Positions 28,293-45,500 of a DNA stretch of 64,000 nucleotides are shown in pieces. The position numbers were made by a program, and so were the translations under genes. The first letter of the stretch is position 1. Each line of letters starts with the position of its first letter. Under the pieces are notes generated by a model. It ran no database searches. It was not told where the DNA came from and was given only the letters and a program-made list of their open reading frames with translations. This DNA comes from a virus (taxonomy: Duplodnaviria; Caudoviricetes): the IMG/VR virus record IMGVR_UViG_3300010234_000009, positions 292 to 64,291 of that record, one strand, 5' to 3'.

Positions 28293-28461
28293 GCTCGCCG
28301 TAGGGGAAAGCCCCCACCGGCCGCTTTACACGCTGGGATGCACCACCGTAAGCGGCGACTCCCCAATATGCCGGCAGGGGACTCTTTCAAGGTCCGGGGA
28401 TTATCGGGGGGTCGCGCCTCACGGGAAACCCAGGTGCGGGTGCAAATCCCGCCGGCGAGCC
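28293..28461 (+). ncRNA. tRNA-like structured RNA (8-bp acceptor, 5-bp T stem, inserted arms, UUC anticodon-like loop)
   Basis: GCTCGCCG 28293-28300 pairs perfectly with CGGCGAGC 28453-28460. T arm GCGGG-TGCAAAT-CCCGC. Anticodon-like hairpin GGACT-CTTTCAA-GGTCC. No encoded CCA. Confidence 0.6.
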
Positions 28462-36739: not shown

Positions 36740-37084
36740 ATGACGAAATGCAAATGCCTCTGCTGTGACTGGCAGGGAGAGGAGTCGGACGTGCGACTCC
36801 CGATTCCAGACCTCTTTGAGCGACTGGACGACGGTGTCACCGTGATGCCAGCCGGTGAGTGCCCAAACTGCGGGTCACTGGCATACAACGAGGATGCCCT
36901 CGCTGAGATGCAACTGGCGGATGCAGCGCCTGATTTGCTGGCAGCTTGCGAGGCTATTGTGAATCACATTGAGAGCCTTCCCGACGATACCGAGAAGTGC
37001 CGCATACTGAAACTCTCACTCAACAATCGGGCTGGTGACATGATCCGCCAAGCCATCGCCAAGGCCAAAGGGGGTGCCGCATGA
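36740..37084 (+). CDS. Hypothetical protein with Zn-ribbon and AAPDLLAAC motif
   Basis: CKCLCC...CPNC; LADAAPDLLAACE is a common phage motif. Confidence 0.6.
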   Translation: MTKCKCLCCDWQGEESDVRLPIPDLFERLDDGVTVMPAGECPNCGSLAYNEDALAEMQLADAAPDLLAACEAIVNHIESLPDDTEKCRILKLSLNNRAGDMIRQAIAKAKGGAA

Positions 37085-38622
37085 CAGCAACCATCCGAGA
37101 ACCCTGCATCGAACTTGCCAAGGCGAGACTCTACGCCCGGCGCAAGTGGAAGTACGCAAGCACTGCGATCCTCAGTCTGATCCCCGTGCCTCGCAAGGGG
37201 CTGGGGACCATGAGCGTGGATGCGAAGTGGCGACTCTACTACGACCCTGATCACCTGGCAAAGATCAGCACGGAGAGAGCCGGCACAACGATCATGCACG
37301 AGGTGATGCACTGCTTGCTCAAACACTTTGACCGCGCTGGCCGGGTTGTCCCTGCCAACGACAACGAGGCGTGGTTCGAGTGGAACAAGTGGACCGACGT
37401 GGTGATCAACGATGCCCTCATTGCAGAGGGTGGCGACGTCGGTGAAGACTGGTGTACCTCGTCCACTATGAGCGTCGAGGCCGGTAAGTGTGCGGAAACG
37501 TACTTCAAGGAAGCGTGGGCTAAACGTCAACAACAACAACAGGAGAACGAGGATGACGACGAAACAGGAAATGGACCTAAGGCGGAAGACACTGGTGAGG
37601 AACCTGACAACGGACCTGACCAACCTGATCCAACTGGAGACGACGTCGGCAGTGAGGCCGGTGACGGATCAGATGGCGACGGTGAAGGAGAAGATGGAAC
37701 TGCAGAGGGAGATGACGGGAAAGCTGGTCAACCTGATGGAGCAACTGGCGCAGGGTCAGATGGACCTGACCAACCGGGTGAAGGAACTGGAAGCGGCGAT
37801 GCTCAAGGATCAGAACCGGGAGATGCAGGACCAGTGGACGCAACAGAGGCCGGTTGTCCCACCAACGGAGAGCACGTCGGGGGATCGTGTGCCGACGGAA
37901 TCCGACGAGAGTGGGAAGTGAACGACGAGACGCCTGGCGAGGGCGAGCCTGGTGGTCTTGAGGAATACGAGGTCGAGGCAATCCGCAAGGAAGTGGCCGA
38001 GGCAATGGAAGGCTCGCCCGGCAAGAGTGGTGCCTACGGTCGGATGCTGGTTGATGAAGTGCTCAACCCGAGGATCGACCCCAAGCGTCTGCTGATGAAG
38101 GCGGTACGCTGCCACACTGACAACATTCTGTTCGGCAGTGGTGGTCGCTATTCGTACCGTCGCCCGAGTCGGCGCCCATCGCTGACACGCTCGATGATTC
38201 GTCCCCGTTCGTTCCGGCCAGTGCCTCGCATCGTGGTCTGCGTCGATACGTCGGGTTCGATGAAGTACGGCACAAGCCTACCGCTCGCCATGGGCTTGAT
38301 TGCTAACGTGCTTAACGGGTTGTCTCTGCGTGACGGTGTGCGGGTGATCCTGGCCGATACGGAAGTGAAAGACTCCCTCAAGTGCTTCGACCCTTCCAAG
38401 CTGGAAATGGTCGGTGGTGGGGGCACGTCGTTCGCTGGGATGATCCGCGGTGCCGAGGAAATGAAAGCGGATGAGCGACCCGAGTTGTTGATCCTTGTGA
38501 CCGACGGTGAGGACCGCTGGCCGGTTGATCCGCCGGCGTTCCCGGTGGTCGCCTGCTTGACGAAGGAACCGGGGCACTATTGGGATGTGCCCACGTGGGT
38601 GGATCGAGTTAACCTGTACTAA
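37081..38622 (+). CDS. vWA-domain metallopeptidase-like partner of MoxR (DUF2201-like)
   Basis: HEVMH (HExxH), acidic Gly-rich linker, C-terminal VCVDTSGSM MIDAS and LVTDG. Confidence 0.85.
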   Translation: MTATIREPCIELAKARLYARRKWKYASTAILSLIPVPRKGLGTMSVDAKWRLYYDPDHLAKISTERAGTTIMHEVMHCLLKHFDRAGRVVPANDNEAWFEWNKWTDVVINDALIAEGGDVGEDWCTSSTMSVEAGKCAETYFKEAWAKRQQQQQENEDDDETGNGPKAEDTGEEPDNGPDQPDPTGDDVGSEAGDGSDGDGEGEDGTAEGDDGKAGQPDGATGAGSDGPDQPGEGTGSGDAQGSEPGDAGPVDATEAGCPTNGEHVGGSCADGIRREWEVNDETPGEGEPGGLEEYEVEAIRKEVAEAMEGSPGKSGAYGRMLVDEVLNPRIDPKRLLMKAVRCHTDNILFGSGGRYSYRRPSRRPSLTRSMIRPRSFRPVPRIVVCVDTSGSMKYGTSLPLAMGLIANVLNGLSLRDGVRVILADTEVKDSLKCFDPSKLEMVGGGGTSFAGMIRGAEEMKADERPELLILVTDGEDRWPVDPPAFPVVACLTKEPGHYWDVPTWVDRVNLY

Positions 38623-38720
38623 CGGGATGCGTAGTTCCGTCTGTCGGCCGGTGACGACTCCGAACGTCGCCGGCCGGCTAGCGGCACTGTTCAACCCCCT
38701 TTTGGAAAGTGAGTGAGTGT

Positions 38721-40349
38721 ATGACTGCAACTGCTGAACGTGTAACAGCCTTGAAAGAGGCCGGCGAAGACTTCGAGTGGTACCCAACCACTGACGAGAT
38801 ACTTCGCAAGATTGCTTGTCGTATCCAGTCCCGTGTGGACCGGTACTACAGCACCGTGAAGATACTCGACATCGGTGCTGGCGATGGTCGTGCCCTGGTG
38901 CGACTGGAAGACATGATGCGGGGCGAAGATGGTGACCGCGACCGGGTGAGACTGGACAAGTTCGCTATCGAAAAGAGCATGATCCACTTGGCGAACATGC
39001 CCAAGGAGATTGTGGTCATTGGCACGGACTTCTACGAGCAAACACTCGTGGATAAGAAGTTCGATGCCATCTTTTGCAACCCTCCCTACTCGGAGTATGA
39101 GACGTGGGTGCATCGCATCCTCAAAGAGTGCGATGCCGAGCACGTCTACCTCGTGATCCCGAAGCGGTGGCGAGACAACCAGCGGATCAACCAGTTGGTC
39201 GAAGACCTCGGCGCAACGGTGGACTCGTTGGGTGAGTTTGACTTTGAGCGTGCTGAACGGCAGGCGAGGGCGAAGGTCGAGATTGTCCACTTCACGGTTC
39301 GCCGCAGGGAGCACAGTGCGTTCGACGCTGCCATTGAGGACATGCTTCCCGAGTTGGACCGCTTCGACGTCGAGGTCGAGGACATGCCAACCGACGAACC
39401 ATGGGAGAAGCGGATCGCAGAAGGCGGTACCGTGATCGACTCGTTGGTGGCAGCATACGATACCGAGCAGCAGGAGCTACTTGATACCTACCGTGAGGTG
39501 GTCAAGATCAACCCGTTCCTGCTGAAAGAGTTGGGTGTCACCAAGGCGAACATCATGGTGGGGATTCGTGAGAAGATCATGAGCCTCAAGAACCGCTACT
39601 GGGCGGTGCTGTTCGACCACCTGAAAGACATCACCAAACGGTTCGCCACCAAGCAGCGGAAGGCGTTCCTTGACTCGCTTACGAGCAAGACGGTGATTGA
39701 CTTCACCCATGGCAACGTCCGGTCCATGCTGATCTGGATTAGCAAGTGGGGGAGTGACTACTTCGATGAGCAGTTGGTCGAACTGTTTCAAGCGATGGCG
39801 ACACACGCCAACGTGGAGAACTACAAGAGCAACCACAAGGTTTACACCGAGGGTCGCTATCGTTATCAGAACGAGAAACACGACCACTGCAAGGTGGAAT
39901 ACCGGCTCGTGATGGAGTACATGGGTGGAGTTCACAAGGGACAGTACACCAAGTGGGACTATCCCAACGGACTCGCCCAACGGGGGCATGAGTTCCTGGA
40001 GGACTTCATCACCGTTGCCAACAACCTCGGGTTCGCTTGCGACGACTCGTCTCTCAACTACCAGTGGGAGTCGAACAGCAAGGTGGAATTGTTTCTCAAC
40101 GATGGCACATTGCTGATGGACGTCCGGGCGTTCAAGAACGGGAACATGCACATCCGGGTGTCCAAACGTGTCATGCTGGCGATTAACATTCAGGCCGGCA
40201 AGTTGCTGGGCTGGCTCAAGAACGCCGACGATATGTACCGCGAACTGGACATCGAACCGGAAGACTTTGAGTTTGCCGGCAAGACGTTCAAGATCAGCAA
40301 CCGCATTACCGCCAACAACCTACTCAAACTGGAGAACAAAGCAGGCTAA
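38721..40349 (+). CDS. N6-adenine DNA methyltransferase with DUF4942-like C-terminus
   Basis: EWYPT, ILDIGAGDG (SAM binding), CNPPYS (motif IV); C-terminal RAFKNGNMHIR. Confidence 0.8.
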   Translation: MTATAERVTALKEAGEDFEWYPTTDEILRKIACRIQSRVDRYYSTVKILDIGAGDGRALVRLEDMMRGEDGDRDRVRLDKFAIEKSMIHLANMPKEIVVIGTDFYEQTLVDKKFDAIFCNPPYSEYETWVHRILKECDAEHVYLVIPKRWRDNQRINQLVEDLGATVDSLGEFDFERAERQARAKVEIVHFTVRRREHSAFDAAIEDMLPELDRFDVEVEDMPTDEPWEKRIAEGGTVIDSLVAAYDTEQQELLDTYREVVKINPFLLKELGVTKANIMVGIREKIMSLKNRYWAVLFDHLKDITKRFATKQRKAFLDSLTSKTVIDFTHGNVRSMLIWISKWGSDYFDEQLVELFQAMATHANVENYKSNHKVYTEGRYRYQNEKHDHCKVEYRLVMEYMGGVHKGQYTKWDYPNGLAQRGHEFLEDFITVANNLGFACDDSSLNYQWESNSKVELFLNDGTLLMDVRAFKNGNMHIRVSKRVMLAINIQAGKLLGWLKNADDMYRELDIEPEDFEFAGKTFKISNRITANNLLKLENKAG

Positions 40350-40396
40350 GCGTTAACGGTTCCGAGTTTTTACTAACCCTCTTTTGGAGAATCTAC

Positions 40397-40525
40397 ATGA
40401 GTCAGAACAACATCTTTGTGAACGGTCCCAAGCGTGACTTCCCTCACCTGTTGCACCTGGTGCTGACAATCCTGACGTGCGGTCTGTGGCTGCCGATCTG
40501 GATTCTCGCCTACATTTTCAGCTAG
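40397..40525 (+). CDS. Small membrane protein (42 aa)
   Basis: MSQNNIFVNGPKRDFPHLLHLVLTILTCGLWLPIWILAYIFS after the leader motif. Confidence 0.65.
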   Translation: MSQNNIFVNGPKRDFPHLLHLVLTILTCGLWLPIWILAYIFS

Positions 40526-40632
40526 GACTAAACCGAGGCTTGTAGCCTCGTCGGGGTGCTGCGTTTTCCTGCGATCGCGCAGCACCCTAGCGATGCTATC
40601 AACCGCTTTGGCACGGAAGGAAAATTATTCTG

Positions 40633-40860
40633 ATGACATGCCCAACCTGCGACCATACGTTGCACAACATCACGATTGGCGAGGGGGTTGGTACCTTTTG
40701 GTGCCCCCGGTGTGGAACCCTCAGCGACACGACAGGGCACGAACGCCCCAAGCTGGCGCATGAGGTCTACGCTAACCGGCCGAAGTCTGTAACTGGCGAC
40801 AGTGACGTCACAATTGGCTTATCCAAGGATGGTTCGTTTGAGGTCATCAAAGTGGAGTGA
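40633..40860 (+). CDS. Zn-ribbon small protein
   Basis: CPTC...CPRC. Confidence 0.6.
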   Translation: MTCPTCDHTLHNITIGEGVGTFWCPRCGTLSDTTGHERPKLAHEVYANRPKSVTGDSDVTIGLSKDGSFEVIKVE

Positions 40861-41276
40861 GTGAATTGATCATCACATACCGAGGAAATCACATCAACGT
40901 CGAGCGGGAGGGCAAGCGTTTCCACTACACCGCGAGGGTCAATCGCAACGAGAAGGGCACGTACCTTGGCGGATGGGGGCGCACACCTGTACGAACCGTG
41001 ACCTCCACAGTGTGCGATATGGGCAGTCGAAACTGGAAGCGGGCGATTCGCAAGCTGGAGGTGTGGATCGACTACGAGCTAGAACACTGGGAATTGCGAA
41101 TCACTCTCGACAACCTAATGAAGCGAGTGAACCTCGCGACCACTGCTGTGATCTGCGATATGTTTGCTGACCATGGTGTGAGCGAAGTTTATGATGAGAT
41201 GAGTCTGGACGATCTAAGGTGGGGGATCGAACAAGTGGGACTCTTTGCCAACCCCGCTGCTACAACCGAGGAGTGA
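40857..41276 (+). CDS. Hypothetical protein
   Basis: 139 aa, coupled to both neighbours. Confidence 0.55.
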   Translation: MSELIITYRGNHINVEREGKRFHYTARVNRNEKGTYLGGWGRTPVRTVTSTVCDMGSRNWKRAIRKLEVWIDYELEHWELRITLDNLMKRVNLATTAVICDMFADHGVSEVYDEMSLDDLRWGIEQVGLFANPAATTEE

Positions 41277-41278
41277 GT

Positions 41279-42433
41279 ATGTTTGAGATTAACGTGGAAG
41301 GCTTGAAGGAACTGGAGGGGGGCAAGGAACCGTGGCGTCTCGCCCTCGAGCCGGTAGCCAACGTGTTCGATGAGTTCCGCGGTTACGGGGATGGTACCCG
41401 TAAGAAACCTTTGGACTGCGACGTCTTCTTCCGCAAGGACGATGATGGTCGTGGTATCTGGATGGATGTTCGGGACAACGGTGCTGGGTTCTCCCGGCCC
41501 GAGGACATCTGGACGTTGTTCGGCACGACCGCGAAGCGTGGTTCTGCCGAGGTTGCTGGCCGGTTCAACGCCGGCGACAAGCAGTTGATTGCCTCTGCCC
41601 TCGAGGCGCAGGTGGTTACGGGTAGTCACAGTGTGACCTTCTGCGACGGTCAACGTACCGTCAATGAAGTGGTGCCTCCCTTTGGTGGAACCGAGGTCAG
41701 CGTCTTGATGCCTTGGTCGATCAAGGACAAGGATGACGTGATCGCGAAGCTACGCACGGTGATCCCGCCTCGGGGGCTGTGCTACAACGTGGATCGGTCC
41801 ACTGTCCTGCCTCCGCCACTCGTCATTGGGTGCGCCGTCACGCTGCCCACGGTGGCGCTGCTGGATGGGGTGATGAAGACCACCAACCGCAAGGGGCGTG
41901 TCTACGTGATGGACACACCCGATGAGGCGTTCCTCTACGAACTGGGTGTGCCCGTGTGCTCGCTCAAGGACGTGGGCTTCCCCTACTCTCTCGACGTTCA
42001 CCAAAAGGTTCCGGTGCCGATGTCGCGAGACTCTGTGTCTCCCAAGTGGATGTTCCGCCTGATCGGTGGAGTCATCCAAGCGGCGACCCTCGATGGGGAA
42101 GTGCTGTTGTCACCCGAGGAGCAAGGTGCCCCCTTCATCAAGGGCGCTCTGGAGTGGGTGCGTGACGCCGGTGCGTTGCAGGCCACCATTAAGCAACTCT
42201 ACGGCGACGAAGCGGTGCGTCAGTCGTCGGATTCGCTCGCCAATGCGCAAGCTGTTCAGGCCGGCGCAACGGTGGTCAGCGGCAAGTGGTTCACGGACGA
42301 CACTCGCCGGCGGCTGGCCGACGAGAGCATCATGCCAACTGCCAAGGAAAAGTTTGGGGGAACGCCTGCCCCCGAGAACGGCAATAGCGGTCCTTCAACC
42401 TGTCCTCGATGCGGGGGCGTAGGAGTCGTATGA
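41279..42433 (+). CDS. GHKL (HSP90/MORC-like) ATPase
   Basis: LEPVANVFDE (N box), DVRDNGAGF (G1), LFGTTAK, AGRFNAGDK (G2). SD GAGGAG upstream. Confidence 0.8.
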   Translation: MFEINVEGLKELEGGKEPWRLALEPVANVFDEFRGYGDGTRKKPLDCDVFFRKDDDGRGIWMDVRDNGAGFSRPEDIWTLFGTTAKRGSAEVAGRFNAGDKQLIASALEAQVVTGSHSVTFCDGQRTVNEVVPPFGGTEVSVLMPWSIKDKDDVIAKLRTVIPPRGLCYNVDRSTVLPPPLVIGCAVTLPTVALLDGVMKTTNRKGRVYVMDTPDEAFLYELGVPVCSLKDVGFPYSLDVHQKVPVPMSRDSVSPKWMFRLIGGVIQAATLDGEVLLSPEEQGAPFIKGALEWVRDAGALQATIKQLYGDEAVRQSSDSLANAQAVQAGATVVSGKWFTDDTRRRLADESIMPTAKEKFGGTPAPENGNSGPSTCPRCGGVGVV

Positions 42434-42708
42434 GTGAAAACGATCTGTCCGATCTGATGGTCGAGTCGATTGCGTTCGACGTACAGGACGCAGTGGGAAT
42501 ATCAGTCGGTGCGTGGCGTGATAAACTTGTGGAGTCCGAAGGCTGGGGTGAGGTGAATATCGACATATCGATCGCCTTCGGGCTTGCCTTCTCTGCCGCG
42601 GACTTGCTGTTTGAAGGAGTGTCGGTCGGCGACAAAAGGTTGTTGGCGCAGAAGTACATTGCTGTGCTCAACGACTTTGCGAGACGTGATCTGGAAGATA
42701 ACCATTAA
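42430..42708 (+). CDS. Small acidic hypothetical protein immediately upstream of the RT-associated RNA
   Basis: 92 aa, ATGA overlap with the GHKL gene, AGGAG SD. Confidence 0.6.
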   Translation: MSENDLSDLMVESIAFDVQDAVGISVGAWRDKLVESEGWGEVNIDISIAFGLAFSAADLLFEGVSVGDKRLLAQKYIAVLNDFARRDLEDNH

Positions 42709-42713
42709 CCTTT

Positions 42714-43181
42714 CCCCCTGTCAGTGGCAACCTGCGATGATACGCAATCGGTGCGATCGCCGAGACTTGCATTCGCTACTATTCGCGAGTCGCATTTGTG
42801 GGAAAACGCGATGCACTGGCAGGGGGGCTTTGAAACAGTGGGATTGGCCGCGAGAGGGAGCACGTTGTTTCCTCATCTCCCGGCCGGCACTGGGCGTCAA
42901 CGGTGCCAAGCATTCTCGAACGGTTCGACCGTCGGCCAATCCCTTTTACTACGTTGTGACCTGCCCTAGCGTGTGGCTTAATGAGTGCGATGTTTTCGTC
43001 ACATGCTGGGTCACCAGCACATGCCCGTTGCGAATCGCCGGGGCCATGTTTGCACGTTCCAAGGAAGTGTAAAGTTCGTCGTCCTAAAAGTGAAAACTCG
43101 AGCCTCCGCTATGCTGCGGTTCTGCGAAAGTTTTAACTTTTACTAGACAATCTTTACCCTTGCACACCTGGGGCGGGTCAC
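42714..43181 (+). ncRNA. RT-associated structured RNA with three domains; the third has retron msr/msd-like geometry
   Basis: Closing stems: 42714-42726/42814-42826 (13 bp), 42840-42850/42933-42943 (11 bp, perfect), 42956-42975/43163-43181 (19 bp plus a 1-nt bulge). Each encloses 3-4 hairpins. Confidence 0.7.
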
Positions 43182-43206
43182 TTTTTTACAACACGATGGG
43201 GACCAC

Positions 43207-44076
43207 GTGAAACGCATTTTCATAAGCAAGCGAGGCGGGGGCAAGCGACTGGTCTACGCCTGCACTCGCAACGAGGTGATGAAGTATTGGTCGCTCTTTT
43301 ACCACCGGCTCGTGAAGATGCAGCACCAGCACCTACCACCTGGCGTAGCGCACGGGTTTGTGCCTGGCCGGTCACCGGTCACCAACGCAATGATGCACGT
43401 GAGCTATCGACACACGCTCAGTATGGACCTCAAAGACTTCTTCGATACGGTGACTCCGAACAACTGCAAGCCGGTCGTGGACGAGTACGCTGGGAAGTTC
43501 ATCACCAAAGAGAACGCCCCTGGCAGCCAGCTACCTTGCAACATCCTCAGAAACCGTCGAGGCGAACCCAACGACCGGCCAGCACTTCATGCGTTGTTCG
43601 TTGACGGTTGCGCCCGGCAGGGGATACCGACCTCGCCTATGGTGGCGAACATCGCCGCGGCCGACATGGACTGGCGGATCGAGACAACATGCCGGGGACT
43701 GGGGGTGATGTTCACCCGCTACGCAGACGATCTAACATTCAGCTTCAACGATCCCAGCCTGCGCAAGCGACTGATGGAACTGGTATTCACCGAGGCACAA
43801 CGGAAGCGGTTCCGAGTGAACCGACGCAAGACACACTTCATGAGCGCGACGCAAGGCCGGCGGATCATCACGGGCGTTGCGGTCGATGACGCGATCCATC
43901 CCACTCGCAAGCTACGACGCAAGATGAGGGCGGCAGCACACCAGTGCAACTGGGCGAGCCTGGACGGAATGAGAGAGTGGGCGAAGCTGAAACTCCCCAA
44001 GGGGTTTGTCGAGGAAGACAAGCGGGGGCGTCAAGCCTGGACGAGAGTGAGTGACGATCTGTACGGCAAGTTTTAA
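43207..44076 (+). CDS. Retron-type reverse transcriptase (stand-alone, 289 aa)
   Basis: KRGGGKR, AHGF..GRS..TNAMMH (retron region X, NAxxH), MDLKDFF, QGIPTSPMVANI, TRYADDLTFS, IITGV (region Y, VTG-like). Confidence 0.9.
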   Translation: MKRIFISKRGGGKRLVYACTRNEVMKYWSLFYHRLVKMQHQHLPPGVAHGFVPGRSPVTNAMMHVSYRHTLSMDLKDFFDTVTPNNCKPVVDEYAGKFITKENAPGSQLPCNILRNRRGEPNDRPALHALFVDGCARQGIPTSPMVANIAAADMDWRIETTCRGLGVMFTRYADDLTFSFNDPSLRKRLMELVFTEAQRKRFRVNRRKTHFMSATQGRRIITGVAVDDAIHPTRKLRRKMRAAAHQCNWASLDGMREWAKLKLPKGFVEEDKRGRQAWTRVSDDLYGKF

Positions 44077-44100
44077 CCGGGAATCGGAAGGGGTTCCGTA

Positions 44101-44150
44101 GGCGCGGGTGGGCATTTCCAGACATCCACCCGCGCCGCCTCGGTTTTTAT
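44101..44150 (+). terminator. Hairpin/terminator between the RT and the recombinase
   Basis: GGCGCGGGTGG 44101-44111 / CCACCCGCGCC 44126-44136 perfect 11-bp stem, with a T5 run shortly after. Confidence 0.55.
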
Positions 44151-44172
44151 TCCAACCCACGAGGGACCAGCC

Positions 44173-44994
44173 ATGCGAAAACCATTTGTTTACTGCTACA
44201 CCCGGGTGAGCACCCTGGATCAAGTCGATGGGCACTCCCTCGGCGACCAGTCCACTCGCTTCTTGGAGAAGTACGCTCGCAGCCTGAGCGAGAAATACGA
44301 CCTCGGTTGCATCATCAAGGATGAAGGGGTCAGCGCGTCCAAAGTCCCGCTGTTCAAGCGGCGAGAGGGACGCAAGCTGCGACTGGTGGGCGACCACGTC
44401 GAGGGGATCATTCAGCCCGGCGACATGATCTACTTCGACAAGATGTCGAGGGGGTTTCGCTCGGTTAGGGATTGGTCGAACTGCCTGGACTACTTCCGCG
44501 AGGCTGGGGTGGAACTTTCCTTCGGCGACATCGAGGGGTCGGGCGAGGGCGGGGGAACTGCCGTGTCGAAACTGATTATGAACATCCTCAGCACCGTCTG
44601 CCAGTTTGAGTCAGACTTAAAGTCCGAGTATGCCCTTGAGCGTAACGCCTCTGCTAAGTACCTCGGGGCACCAGCCAGCGGTGGGAAGGCGCCACTCGGA
44701 TGGAAGAAGGTCAAGCGTGATGGGGGGACGTACCTGGAACTCTGCTACCTCACTCGCCGGCTGATGCAGCAAATCGTGAAGTGGCGGGATGAGGGTCGCA
44801 CCTACTACTGGATTCAGACCCAAGCGGAATGCCTTTGGGCACGTATCCACGGCATCGATCCGCCGGTAGGTGGGCACGAGGATCACCGGACTGCGTTCTA
44901 CCCATGGCACTTCACGAATCGCTCAAAGATCATCAAGTGGGAAGCAGCCGGCCGGGCGCTGATGGACAAGGGCGAACTCGATAAGCTGCCCTAG
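44173..44994 (+). CDS. Serine recombinase (resolvase/invertase catalytic domain plus short C-terminal extension)
   Basis: YCYTRVSTLDQ (catalytic Ser), SLGDQ, DEGVSA, FDKMSRGFRS, GGKAPLGW. Confidence 0.85.
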   Translation: MRKPFVYCYTRVSTLDQVDGHSLGDQSTRFLEKYARSLSEKYDLGCIIKDEGVSASKVPLFKRREGRKLRLVGDHVEGIIQPGDMIYFDKMSRGFRSVRDWSNCLDYFREAGVELSFGDIEGSGEGGGTAVSKLIMNILSTVCQFESDLKSEYALERNASAKYLGAPASGGKAPLGWKKVKRDGGTYLELCYLTRRLMQQIVKWRDEGRTYYWIQTQAECLWARIHGIDPPVGGHEDHRTAFYPWHFTNRSKIIKWEAAGRALMDKGELDKLP

Positions 44995-45500
44995 AACGGC
45001 GCGTCAGGGGGTTGTGGCGCTGGGGAACTCGGGGCAGCTAAGTCCTGATCCAGCACCACAACCCTGATCTTGACGCAAGCGGCTGACTCCGTCCAATGAC
45101 GGTTGGTGCAGCCGCCGCAAAACCGACTGTCGTTCTTGACGATCACCTTCTCCAGCGCGTCCGCGACCACCCGCTCCAACTTGTCCTTGTCGGGAGTCTG
45201 TGCGTGATACTTCGGCGCTGACGGTTTCAGCTTCTCGCTGTTCTTCCCGCTGCCGTAATGGGCCTGCGGTCGCGGGAAGAAGAAGTCCAAGTACAGGTGA
45301 CACGGGGCGTCGATCAACGCGCCCTGGTATGCCTTCGCCGCTGCAGCCCGCACTTCCCCCTGCCAAGGCTTCGCACGGGGGTTCGTGTCTTTCAAGCCTG
45401 CGAATGATGAACCATCCTTGCGCTTGTTCACGAACGCCTGTTTGGAACCCTTCTGCTGCGGCACACCAAAGACGGTGAATTCGATTTCCATGGTTACCAA
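44991..45500 (-). CDS. rusA: RusA-family Holliday junction resolvase
   Basis: PQQKGSK...TPDKDKLERVVADAL...NDSRF. Confidence 0.85.
   Translation of the reverse strand: MVTMEIEFTVFGVPQQKGSKQAFVNKRKDGSSFAGLKDTNPRAKPWQGEVRAAAAKAYQGALIDAPCHLYLDFFFPRPQAHYGSGKNSEKLKPSAPKYHAQTPDKDKLERVVADALEKVIVKNDSRFCGGCTNRHWTESAACVKIRVVVLDQDLAAPSSPAPQPPDAPF

What the first reader, a model, noticed from the sequence alone, without database searches (positions are those of the whole stretch)
42714..42943. Two extra RNA domains upstream of the retron core; D2 ends in a T-loop arm stacked on its closing stem
Seen: D1 is a 13-bp stem enclosing four hairpins (TGCG/CGCA, TCGGTG/CGCCGA, GACTTGC/GCGAGTC, GCATTTGTG/CGCGATGC). 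D2 is a perfect 11-bp stem (GGGATTGGCCG/CGGCCAATCCC) enclosing three hairpins; the last, ACGG-TTCGA-CCGT, abuts the closing stem like a tRNA T arm on an acceptor stem and is followed by TTTT. D1, D2 and D3 share no obvious sequence repeat. Inference: these may be separately processed RNAs (tRNA or Y-RNA mimic, RNase P/Z substrate), additional RT templates, or an RNA effector replacing the usual protein effector.
Basis: partly seen in the sequence, partly recalled or inferred. Interest (0 to 1): 0.7.

Follow-up and report, generated by a model that had tools for sequence, protein, structure and literature searches.

The report
Extra RNA modules before phage retron
Two compact, strongly folded non-coding RNA modules sit in a row in front of the template RNA of a phage reverse transcriptase; they are probably extra or decayed copies of that retron-type RNA unit, as related phages carry, and not tRNA or Y-RNA mimics.

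Summary
The structures are real. D1 (42713-42827) and D2 (42840-42943) are non-coding. Each is closed by a 13- or 11-bp stem and folds better than shuffles (z -4.9 and -3.8). They are among the most stable closed multibranch folds in this 64-kb phage.

The "T-loop arm" is not special. It competes with an equally stable alternative hairpin, does not fit T-arm geometry, and stem-TTCGA-stem hairpins occur 19 times in the window. ARAGORN and Rfam find nothing.

D3 is the family's canonical retron-type unit. D1 and D2 have no detectable homologue anywhere. The closest RT relatives (L087, L005, L007, L013) do carry tandem arrays of stem-closed units in which one unit has the canonical UUU recognition loop and the others have variant loops.

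D1 fits that pattern. It has a G right after its closing stem, UG before the 3' arm, a U-run after it, and a hairpin with the family's CGGUG/CGCCG stem but a CGAU loop. Three of the seven D1/D2 hairpins share the family's UG...CG loop closure, against 2.5% in the background.

Best reading (about 0.4): D1, and less surely D2, are extra units of a tandem retron-type array. This scan noted such arrays before in Staphylococcus jumbo phages. A 2026 preprint shows an analogous array for UG27 RTs.

The parts
42713..42827 (+). D1: 115-nt stem-closed module with four hairpins; candidate compact retron-type unit
   Evidence: MFE -54.3 kcal/mol, z -4.9. 10th of 368 closed multibranch folds by kcal/nt. 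Non-coding.
42714..42726 (+). D1 5' closing arm (a1-like), pairs with 42814-42826; includes one G.U pair
   Evidence: 13 bp, mean pair probability 0.96.
42727..42727 (+). Unpaired G directly 3' of the D1 closing arm; candidate priming (branch) G (inferred)
   Evidence: The same 'a1-G' junction is seen in canonical units of L087, L002, L024, L112, L005, L045, L053, L059 and L130.
42748..42763 (+). D1 hairpin 2: UCGGUG-CGAU-CGCCGA. Same stem as the family landmark hairpin (CGGUG-UUU-CGCCG), with a variant loop
   Evidence: In relatives, variant-loop copies of this stem lie 7 of 8 on the RT-sense strand and 5 of 8 in the 1.3-kb leader zone (p 5e-4).
42796..42811 (+). D1 hairpin 4: UUGUG-GGAAAA-CGCGA, also with a UG...CG loop closure
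42814..42826 (+). D1 3' closing arm (a2-like), preceded by UG and followed by GCUUUG
42828..42839 (+). 12-nt A/U-rich linker between D1 and D2 (CUUUGAAACAGU)
   Evidence: Read directly from the sequence.
42840..42943 (+). D2: 104-nt stem-closed module with three hairpins; degenerate unit or module of other origin
   Evidence: MFE -52.3 kcal/mol, z -3.8. 3rd of 368 by kcal/nt. Non-coding.
42840..42850 (+). D2 5' closing arm GGGATTGGCCG, pairs with 42933-42943. Identical to the termini of a REP-like palindrome family in Polyangiaceae and Planctomycetes MAGs
   Evidence: Pair probability 0.97. Repeat family.
42886..42907 (+). D2 hairpin B: GGCACUG-GGCGUCAA-CGGUGCC, with a UG...CG loop closure
   Evidence: Pair probability 1.00; closure noted.
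42916..42932 (+).
   Evidence: Probabilities about 0.5 and 0.45. The TTCGA hairpin is at chance level.
42944..42955 (+). 12-nt linker between D2 and D3 (UUUUACUACGUU)
   Evidence: Read directly from the sequence. A U-run after the 3' closing arm is a family trait.
42956..43181 (+). D3: canonical retron-type unit of this RT family. 19-bp a1/a2 with one bulge, UG-UUUU-CG hairpin at 42989-43000, long template hairpin, U6 tail
43207..44076 (+). 289-aa retron-clade reverse transcriptase; the only RT in the phage
   Evidence: Pfam RVT_1 2e-19. PADLOC RT_XIII 2e-42. NCBIfam retron St85 1.5e-36, below cutoff. Single RT in the phage.

Best explanation
D1, D2 and D3 form a tandem array of three independently folding, stem-closed RNA modules. 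They are transcribed on the + strand together with the single phage RT gene.

D3 is the canonical retron-type template unit. D1 is most likely a second, compact unit of the same kind. Its parts are a 13-bp a1/a2-like stem, a candidate priming G at 42727, a recognition-type hairpin with the family stem but a CGAU loop, about 50 nt of possible template, and then UG, the 3' arm and a U-run. D2 is a more degenerate unit, or a module that only binds the RT.

Proposed mechanism, all of it inferred:
- Each module closes on itself as it is transcribed.
- The RT docks on hairpins whose loop is closed by 5'-UG...CG-3'.
- The RT primes from the G next to the closing stem.
- It copies the 3' part of the module into a short single-stranded DNA.
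- D3 gives the main product.
- D1 may give a second cDNA of about 45-50 nt, or may compete for the RT.
- D2 has too little template (about 25 nt) and probably acts only as a binding, insulating or relic module.

Shown here: the folds, the lack of coding signal, the junction and hairpin signatures, and the multi-unit arrays in relatives.

Not shown: transcription, processing, RT binding, or any cDNA.
For: 1. Modular build. Three end-closed domains are separated by two 12-nt A/U-rich linkers, and each closing stem is followed by a U-run as in canonical units of the family.

2. D1 junctions match canonical units. The form is 'a1-GC...UG-a2', as in L087 and L005.

3. D1 hairpin 2 has the landmark stem CGGUG/CGCCG, placed 35-40 nt from the start of the unit; the family range is 25-45 nt. 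In non-redundant relatives, hairpins with this stem but a non-UUU loop lie 7 of 8 on the RT-sense strand and 5 of 8 in the leader zone (p 5e-4).

4. Three of the seven D1/D2 hairpins have the landmark loop closure UG...CG. The rate in 2969 background hairpins of the same phage is 2.5% (p 5e-4).

5. The nearest RT relatives (36-40% identity) carry arrays of stem-closed units. L087 has units B, C and D with the box CCRUUGACG at 2314, 2518 and 2724. L005 has three hairpins, CCCGGUG-UUU/UAG/ACU-CGCCGGG. L007 has at least two core-like modules. L013 has a 366-nt tandem repeat. In L087 and L005 only one unit has the UUU loop, as in the window.

6. Stable closed folds are 2.2-fold enriched in the 1-kb zone upstream of the RT across 29 relatives (34 of 99, against 15.8% of the length).

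7. A published analogue exists. Phage UG27 RTs use arrays of sequence-diverse units that template 50-100-nt cDNAs (bioRxiv 10.64898/2026.09.22.753630).
Against: - No sequence or structure homologue of D1 or D2 was found anywhere: blastn against 166 loci, the phage database, the phage's own genome, and single-sequence covariance models against 99 loci.
- D1, D2 and D3 are not significantly similar to each other.
- A sequence profile of the L087/L005/L007/L024 units finds nothing in D1 or D2. It hits D3 only weakly (E 0.23, on the minus strand), so its power in this phage is low.
- Neither domain has the canonical UUU loop or a long template hairpin.
- D2 lacks the G after its closing stem and the UG before the 3' arm.
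- The UG...CG and junction tests were devised after looking at the data.
- This phage is a singleton, so no covariation test is possible.
- The minus strand folds almost as well (z -4.3 and -3.4).
Confidence: 0.4

Rival explanations
1. D1 and D2 are cis-acting structural elements of the operon. They would act as terminator-like, insulating or mRNA-stabilising structures between the upstream genes and the retron module. D2 may derive from a REP-like extragenic palindrome of the host. They would have no direct role with the RT.
For: - D1 starts 5 nt after a stop codon.
- Each closing stem is GC-rich and followed by a U-run.
- D2's arms GGGATTGGCCG / CGGCCAATCCC are the exact termini of long palindromic repeats that sit just after stop codons in Polyangiaceae, Planctomycetes and Coriobacteriia MAGs. 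There are 12 paired hits, about 7 of them palindromic elements. The 12-mer occurs 33, 17, 6 and 4 times in four of these genomes, against 0 for the reversed control.
- In L120, L131 and L147 the space between the core and the RT holds variable, non-conserved hairpin insertions.
Against: - D2's interior is a three-way branch, not a long palindrome, and shares nothing with those repeats.
- The 12-mer is not repeated elsewhere in the phage.
- D1's arms match nothing.
- Branched 100-nt domains are not typical terminators, and the scan reports none here.
- This reading does not explain the excess of UG...CG hairpins or D1's family-type junctions.
Confidence: 0.2
2. D1 and D2 are non-template parts of one long retron-type ncRNA. 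They would be RT-binding or protein-binding scaffold or decoy domains that tune how much RT reaches D3 or help assemble a larger particle. They would never be copied.
For: - Hairpins with the recognition-type closure are enriched, while template space is short or absent, especially in D2.
- In L087 and L005 only one unit per array keeps the UUU loop.
- The window RT has a unique 27-aa insertion that could contact extra RNA; this link is speculative.
Against: - No loop-loop complementarity links the domains (maximum 5 nt; 25% of shuffles do as well).
- A 289-aa RT is small for three RNA domains.
- No accessory protein is conserved next to related RTs.
Confidence: 0.15
3. D1 and D2 are separately processed stable small RNAs with their own trans-acting roles, such as tRNA-like or Y-RNA-like decoys cut out by RNase P, Z or E.
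For: - The ends are protected by long stems, and the A/U-rich 12-nt linkers could be RNase E sites.
- Relatives place tRNA genes or tRNA-like minihelices beside the array: L001 has tRNA genes on both sides; L087:2044-2089 matches mascRNA-menRNA at E 0.037; L005:2773-2814 folds as an acceptor plus T arm.
Against: - ARAGORN and Rfam find nothing in D1 or D2.
- The geometry does not fit the 7+5-bp acceptor/T-arm ruler, and there is no CCA end.
- The TTCGA hairpin is at chance level.
- The phage has no Ro/TROVE gene.
- tRNA adjacency is sporadic: 18 of 167 loci, 9 of them near-identical.
Confidence: 0.12
4. D1 and D2 are decayed or accidental structures with no present function: GC-rich non-coding DNA that happens to fold, or dead relics of former units.
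For: - The phage is a singleton, so there is no conservation evidence.
- After GC correction the domains are not extreme: D1 is 18th and D2 is outside the top 25.
- An 11-bp inverted repeat within 260 nt is expected a few times per 64 kb.
Against: - Two top-10 closed folds tile a non-coding gap exactly, with equal 12-nt linkers, on the RT strand and next to the canonical unit.
- z scores are -4.9 and -3.8.
- There are signature enrichments at p about 5e-4.
- Phage genomes rarely keep 230 nt of useless spacer (general knowledge).
Confidence: 0.13

Closest known systems
Bacterial retrons (msr-msd ncRNA plus retron RT; types I-XIII, Mestre et al. 2020, PMC7736814)
   Same: The RT is retron-clade. 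Units are closed by a1/a2 inverted repeats, with a G next to a1, small recognition hairpins, then a template region, with the RT gene just downstream.
   Different: Described retrons have one ncRNA per RT and an effector. Here three different closed modules stand in a row, no effector is recognisable, and the element is in a phage. D1 and D2 lack the canonical loop and a long template hairpin. The RT misses NCBIfam retron cutoffs (126 against 235 bits) and lacks the N-terminal extension of type XIII.
Tandem retron-type unit arrays of related phage RTs
   Same: Several stem-closed units lie upstream of one RT. One unit has the UUU recognition loop and the others have variant loops. Linkers are short.
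   Different: In those arrays the units are recognisably homologous to each other (shared box CCRUUGACG, profile E 1e-5 to 3e-9). In the window the three modules share no significant similarity, and D1 and D2 are shorter (104-115 nt against 130-225 nt).
UG27 reverse-transcriptase systems of prophages with variable ncRNA arrays (bioRxiv 10.64898/2026.09.22.753630)
   Same: Phage-borne RT; a long intergenic region holding an array of structurally similar but sequence-diverse units; units template short cDNA hairpins. This is what the window's array would work like.
   Different: It is a different RT group (class 2 UG, YSDD active site; here YADD and retron-clade). The unit motif AUC-N7-UANAG is absent here and not enriched in relatives (99 found, 113 expected). 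The required sORF and bORF partners are not conserved next to this RT family.
Engineered retron arrays ('multitrons', bioRxiv 10.1101/2023.07.17.549397)
   Same: Several retron ncRNAs in series are served by one RT.
   Different: They are man-made from one retron scaffold with swapped donors. Here the array is natural and the scaffolds differ (known to me only from the title and abstract listed).
tRNA-like elements and Y RNAs (tRNA RF00005, mascRNA RF01684, Y RNA/YrlA)
   Same: D2 is a four-way junction with a terminal stem and a 3' arm that can abut it, followed by a U-run. Relatives have true tRNA-like minihelices nearby.
   Different: No model match. Stem and loop lengths are wrong. No CCA end. 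No Ro gene. The TTCGA loop is at chance level.

Membership tests
Retron-type unit of this phage RT family | Unit closed by a long a1/a2 inverted repeat | tested here: met
   D1 13 bp, D2 11 bp, pair probability at least 0.96. Family units have 8-16 bp, with covariation in subgroup A.
Retron-type unit of this phage RT family | Unpaired G directly after a1 and G (UG) directly before a2 | tested here: inconclusive
   D1 meets both (G42727...GAUG before a2). D2 meets neither (C after a1, U before a2).
Retron-type unit of this phage RT family | Landmark hairpin, stem-UG UUU CG-stem, 25-45 nt from the start of the unit | tested here: inconclusive
   D1 has the exact stem CGGUG/CGCCG at 35-40 nt but a CGAU loop. 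Such variant-loop copies are RT-linked in relatives. D2 has only a UG...CG-closed hairpin with an 8-nt loop at 53 nt.
Retron-type unit of this phage RT family | Long template (msd-type) hairpin between the landmark hairpin and a2 | tested here: not met
   D1 has two short hairpins (about 50 nt). D2 has about 25 nt. Canonical units have 30-100-nt hairpins.
Retron-type unit of this phage RT family | Detectable sequence or structure homology to other units | tested here: not met
   blastn, pairwise tests with shuffles, covariance models R1-R3 and the nhmmer profile all fail. Power is low, since D3 itself scores only E 0.23.
Retron-type unit of this phage RT family | Copied by the RT into branched msDNA | not testable with these tools
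   Needs ssDNA sequencing and a debranching assay.
tRNA / tRNA-like RNase P-Z substrate | Recognised by tRNA or tRNA-like models | tested here: not met
   ARAGORN finds 0 genes in the window. Rfam at E<=10 finds nothing in D1 or D2.
tRNA / tRNA-like RNase P-Z substrate | 7-bp acceptor stacked on a 5-bp T stem with a 7-nt T loop, and a 3' discriminator-CCA | tested here: not met
   11-bp closing stem. The arm is 4 bp with a 5-nt loop, or 5 bp with a 3-nt loop, and competes with an alternative fold. The 3' tail is UUUU. The canonical geometry is from established tRNA knowledge.
tRNA / tRNA-like RNase P-Z substrate | T-loop-type hairpin present beyond chance | tested here: not met
   19 stem-TTCGA-stem hairpins in the window. 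1.61 per 10 kb in RT leaders against 1.57 elsewhere.
Y RNA / YrlA | Match to Y RNA models, and a Ro (TROVE) partner gene | tested here: not met
   No Rfam match. No TROVE domain in the phage.
UG27 RT ncRNA array | Unit motif AUC-N7-UANAG, a YSDD RT, and conserved sORF and bORF partners | tested here: not met
   The motif is absent from 42700-43210 and not enriched in relatives. The RT has YADD. The upstream 404-aa and 99-aa ORFs have no homologue in any of the 166 related RT loci fetched by then.
REP-like extragenic palindromes (GGGATTGGCCGC family) | Conserved termini, palindromic interior built of repeat units, and many copies per genome | tested here: not met
   D2 has the termini only. Its interior is branched and unrelated. 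It is a single copy in the phage.

The most novel reading that the evidence does not exclude
This phage carries a natural three-module retron array in which one small RT serves three unrelated-looking stem-closed RNAs. One has the canonical recognition loop and two have variant loops. The variant modules would either yield distinct short ssDNAs or act as built-in competitors that set how much RT reaches the main template. The 'one canonical, others variant' layout recurs in L087 and L005, so it would be a design rule of phage retron arrays and not decay.
Probability: 0.3. Interest if true: 0.7.

Novelty: new variant of a known kind. Interest (0 to 1): 0.5.

Why it matters
Retrons are known as one-RNA, one-RT bacterial defence systems, and retron arrays are so far described as an engineered tool. 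If D1 and D2 are working units, this phage and its relatives show natural multi-unit retron arrays with deliberately varied recognition loops.

That would bear on three things:
- what phage-encoded retron-type RTs are for, which is still unknown;
- how an RT chooses among RNAs;
- the design of multiplexed retron editors.

It would also extend to the retron clade what a 2026 preprint showed for UG27 RTs. If instead the domains are relics or insulators, the finding is an ordinary structured spacer.

Tried and rejected
- Rfam, at gathering thresholds and at E<=10: no family covers D1 or D2.
- ARAGORN: no tRNA or tmRNA.
- Coding reading: rejected on codon statistics and Pfam.
- Homologue search for D1 and D2. 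These all found nothing beyond self: blastn against 166 loci, the phage database, exact arm patterns in viral contigs, the phage's own genome, and single-sequence covariance models against 99 loci.
- Model R1, built from gut-phage units, was too narrow to reach even D3.
- The profile of L087/L005-type units does not reach D1 or D2.
- D1/D2/D3 as recent duplicates: rejected.
- Kissing loops between domains: at chance level.
- TTCGA loops as a shared family motif: no enrichment.
- CsrA-sponge idea: only one GGA-containing loop, so dropped (read).
- tRNA genes as regular neighbours of these RTs: sporadic.
- The UG27 motif and the three-protein layout: not met.
- MITE or REP reading for D1: no matches.
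- A Staphylococcus phage relative (L196) showed no obvious upstream array; I did not pursue it.
- One mis-formed look-up.

Full report
**Context.** The window is almost all of a 64.3-kb IMG/VR virus record, 97% complete. Genes from about 37081 to 44994 run on the + strand. A 99-aa ORF ends at 42708, and a 289-aa reverse transcriptase starts at 43207.

The RT is retron-clade:
- Pfam RVT_1, 2e-19.
- Best PADLOC model RT_XIII at 2e-42, followed by a long list of other retron RT models.
- NCBIfam retron St85 at 1.5e-36, but below its cutoff.

It is the only RT in the phage. Its closest relatives among 5.8 billion proteins are only 44% identical. The phage is therefore a singleton, and covariation cannot be used on its RNAs.

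**Observation.**
- *Folds.* The 498-nt gap folds into three end-closed domains (z -6.6). D1 (42713-42827) has a 13-bp closing stem and four hairpins. D2 (42840-42943) has a perfect 11-bp closing stem and three hairpins. The closing stems have pair probabilities of 0.96-0.97.
- *Shuffles and strand.* Each domain beats all 200 dinucleotide shuffles (z -4.9 and -3.8). The + strand folds about 4 kcal/mol better than the - strand because of G.U pairs.
- *Rank in the phage.* I ran RNALfold over both strands of the window. Among 368 closed multibranch folds, D2 is 3rd and D1 is 10th by energy per nucleotide. After correcting for GC content, D1 is 18th and D3 is 16th of all closed local folds, and D2 drops out of the top 25. 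The domains are strong but not unique.
- *Tiling.* What is unusual is that three such folds tile a non-coding gap exactly, with two 12-nt linkers.
- *Coding.* The ORFs that overlap the region have no coding signature and no Pfam hit.
- *Similarity.* The three domains share no significant sequence similarity.

**The T-loop claim.**
- The hairpin ACGG-UUCGA-CCGU exists and can abut the closing stem.
- It competes with UCGAA-CGG-UUCGA at nearly equal energy (-50.7 against -51.1 kcal/mol; probabilities 0.45 and 0.5).
- It does not have T-arm geometry.
- Stem-TTCGA-stem hairpins occur 19 times in the window. They are no more frequent in RT leaders than elsewhere (1.61 against 1.57 per 10 kb).
- ARAGORN and Rfam at E<=10 find nothing, and the phage has no Ro/TROVE gene.

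The tRNA / Y-RNA reading is therefore not supported.

**What the family looks like.**
- *Loci collected.* I gathered 166 loci that encode relatives of the RT.
- *Landmark hairpin.* Many of them have a hairpin of the form stem-UG UUU CG-stem on the RT-sense strand upstream of the gene. It lies inside a unit closed by an 8-16-bp a1/a2 stem.
- *Covariation.* In a gut-phage subgroup, the a1/a2 stem and the hairpin stem show compensatory changes.
- *D3.* In the window this landmark lies in D3, which is closed by a 19-bp a1/a2 stem with one bulge. D3 is therefore the canonical unit, in agreement with the earlier follow-up on D3 (e1-5939486). D1 and D2 are extras.

**Are the extras found in relatives?**
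- *Not as sequence or structure homologues.* These searches found only the window's own copies: blastn, the phage database, exact arm patterns in viral contigs, the phage's own genome, and covariance models built from D1 and from D2 alone, run over 99 loci.
- *Yes as an arrangement.* The nearest relatives (36-40% RT identity) have long, highly structured leaders made of several closed modules.
  - L087 (about 920 nt, z -4.7) has three homologous stem-closed units B, C and D. Each carries the box CCRUUGACG, at 2314, 2518 and 2724. Further closed domains and a tRNA-like minihelix flank them.
  - L005 has three hairpins with the same stem and different loops: CCCGGUG-UUU/UAG/ACU-CGCCGGG at 2628, 2852 and 3024.
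  - L007 has at least two core-like modules.
  - L013 has a 366-nt tandem repeat.
  - L002 has a 115-nt hairpin domain just 5' of its core.
- *Profile check.* A profile built from eight of these units recovers all eight at E 1e-5 to 3e-9.
- *Enrichment.* Across 29 relatives, stable closed folds are 2.2-fold enriched in the 1 kb upstream of the RT.
- *Loop pattern.* In L087 and L005 only one unit keeps the UUU loop.

**Does D1 or D2 look like such a unit?**
- *D1 does, in several respects.*
  - A G follows the 5' closing arm directly, UG precedes the 3' arm, and a U-run follows it. Canonical units of L087, L005 and others have the same junctions.
  - Its second hairpin, UCGGUG-CGAU-CGCCGA, has exactly the landmark stem of the nearest clade, at a family-typical distance from the start of the unit.
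  - In non-redundant relatives, hairpins with this stem but a non-UUU loop lie 7 of 8 on the sense strand and 5 of 8 in the leader zone (p 5e-4). Such variant-loop hairpins are therefore real, RT-linked features.
- *Shared loop closure.* Three of the seven hairpins of D1 and D2 have the landmark loop closure 5'-UG...CG-3'. The rate among 2969 background hairpins of the same phage is 2.5% (p 5e-4).
- *D2 fits less well.* It lacks the junction signature. Only about 25 nt lie between its UG...CG hairpin and the 3' arm.
- *Limits.* Neither domain has a long template hairpin, and the unit profile does not reach them. That profile barely reaches D3 either (E 0.23, on the minus strand). These signature tests were chosen after I had seen the data, so I treat them as moderate evidence.

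**A side lead on D2.**
- Its arms GGGATTGGCCG / CGGCCAATCCC are the termini of long palindromic repeat elements that sit after stop codons in Polyangiaceae, Planctomycetes and Coriobacteriia MAGs.
- I count 12 paired matches in the genome collection; my own rough estimate of the chance expectation is about 4.
- Only the termini match. D2's interior is branched and unrelated, and the 12-mer is not repeated elsewhere in the phage.
- D1's arms match nothing.
- This keeps open a REP-like or insulator origin for D2.

**Comparison with what is known.**
- *Bacterial retrons.* The system works like a retron but is not a described type. It is phage-borne, has no recognisable effector, and has several modules per RT.
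- *UG27 arrays.* The closest published analogue in function is the UG27 prophage RT with arrays of sequence-diverse ncRNA units that template 50-100-nt cDNAs (bioRxiv 10.64898/2026.09.22.753630). Membership fails on every tested feature: the unit motif is absent, the active site is YADD and not YSDD, and no partner ORFs are conserved.
- *Engineered arrays.* 'Multitrons' are the man-made counterpart.
- *Earlier notes of this scan.* Tandem retron-type arrays were reported in Staphylococcus jumbo phages (e1-1960761, e1-1958880, e1-1960771, e1-1992019). I did not re-test those phages, but I found the same arrangement independently in L087, L005, L007 and L013.

**Verdict.**
- The structures are real and non-coding.
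- The T-loop, tRNA and Y-RNA reading fails.
- The most likely reading (about 0.4) is that D1, and less surely D2, are extra or degenerate units of a tandem retron-type array served by the one phage RT.
- Rival readings:

| Reading | Probability |
|---|---|
| Insulator, terminator or REP-like elements | 0.2 |
| Non-template RT-binding modules | 0.15 |
| Relics or chance | 0.13 |
| Separately processed small RNAs | 0.12 |

Only cDNA and RNA mapping can decide among these.

Noticed in passing
L170-L195 (G003, G004 Polyangiaceae; G001, G002 Planctomycetes MAGs): A REP-like family of extragenic palindromes. Tandem 33-37-nt units (GAGAGGGATTGGCCGCAGAGGCGCAGAGACGCAGAG) are followed by a loop and inverse copies, placed right after stop codons. 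The 12-mer GGGATTGGCCGC occurs 33, 17, 6 and 4 times per genome, against 0 for the reversed control. I did not identify it with any named repeat family.
   Followed up: partly
L087:2044-2089 and L005:2773-2814: tRNA-like minihelices (acceptor stem plus canonical T arm, with no D or anticodon arm) lie directly beside the retron-type RNA arrays of two related phages. L087 matches Rfam mascRNA-menRNA at 29 bits, E 0.037. L005 folds as a 7-bp stem plus a 5-bp stem with loop UUCGAGU. They may mark RNase P/Z processing sites.
   Followed up: partly
L087:2256-2815; L005:2600-3100; L007:2030-2930; L013:2150-2585: Natural tandem arrays of two or three homologous stem-closed retron-type units lie upstream of one phage RT. 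In L087 and L005 only one unit keeps the UUU loop.
   Followed up: partly
window 43207-44076 (about residues 100-127 of the RT): The RT has a 27-aa insertion between conserved blocks. It is absent from all 25 aligned relatives.
   Followed up: no
window 43022-43045: A second hairpin in D3 (GCCCGUUGCGAAUCGCCGGGGC) is the best match in the whole window to the profile of L087/L005-type recognition hairpins (E 0.23, scored on the minus strand; 9.7 on the plus strand). It may be the true homologue of the family landmark, or a second one.
   Followed up: no
window 38514-38684 (+): A 171-nt closed structure with a 20-bp outer stem has the best energy per nucleotide in the window. It spans the junction between the 513-aa gene and the methyltransferase gene.
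   Followed up: no
window 44991-45138: A very stable structure (-82 kcal/mol over 148 nt) lies where the rightward operon meets the leftward genes. It is probably a bidirectional terminator.
   Followed up: no
window 28293-28460: The tRNA-shaped RNA noted earlier ranks 2nd among closed multibranch folds, but RNALfold lists it on the minus strand. Its strand may deserve a check.
   Followed up: no
L120, L131, L147 (alignment A4): The RT in this clade has a long N-terminal extension. The space between the core RNA and the start codon holds variable palindromic insertions (for example CCCTCTCCCATTCGATGGGGGAGGG) that are absent from L120.
   Followed up: partly
L001:5304-6747: In a Gammaproteobacteria MAG contig, the core RNA and RT sit inside a tRNA gene cluster: Val and Phe upstream, Gly directly downstream.
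   Followed up: no
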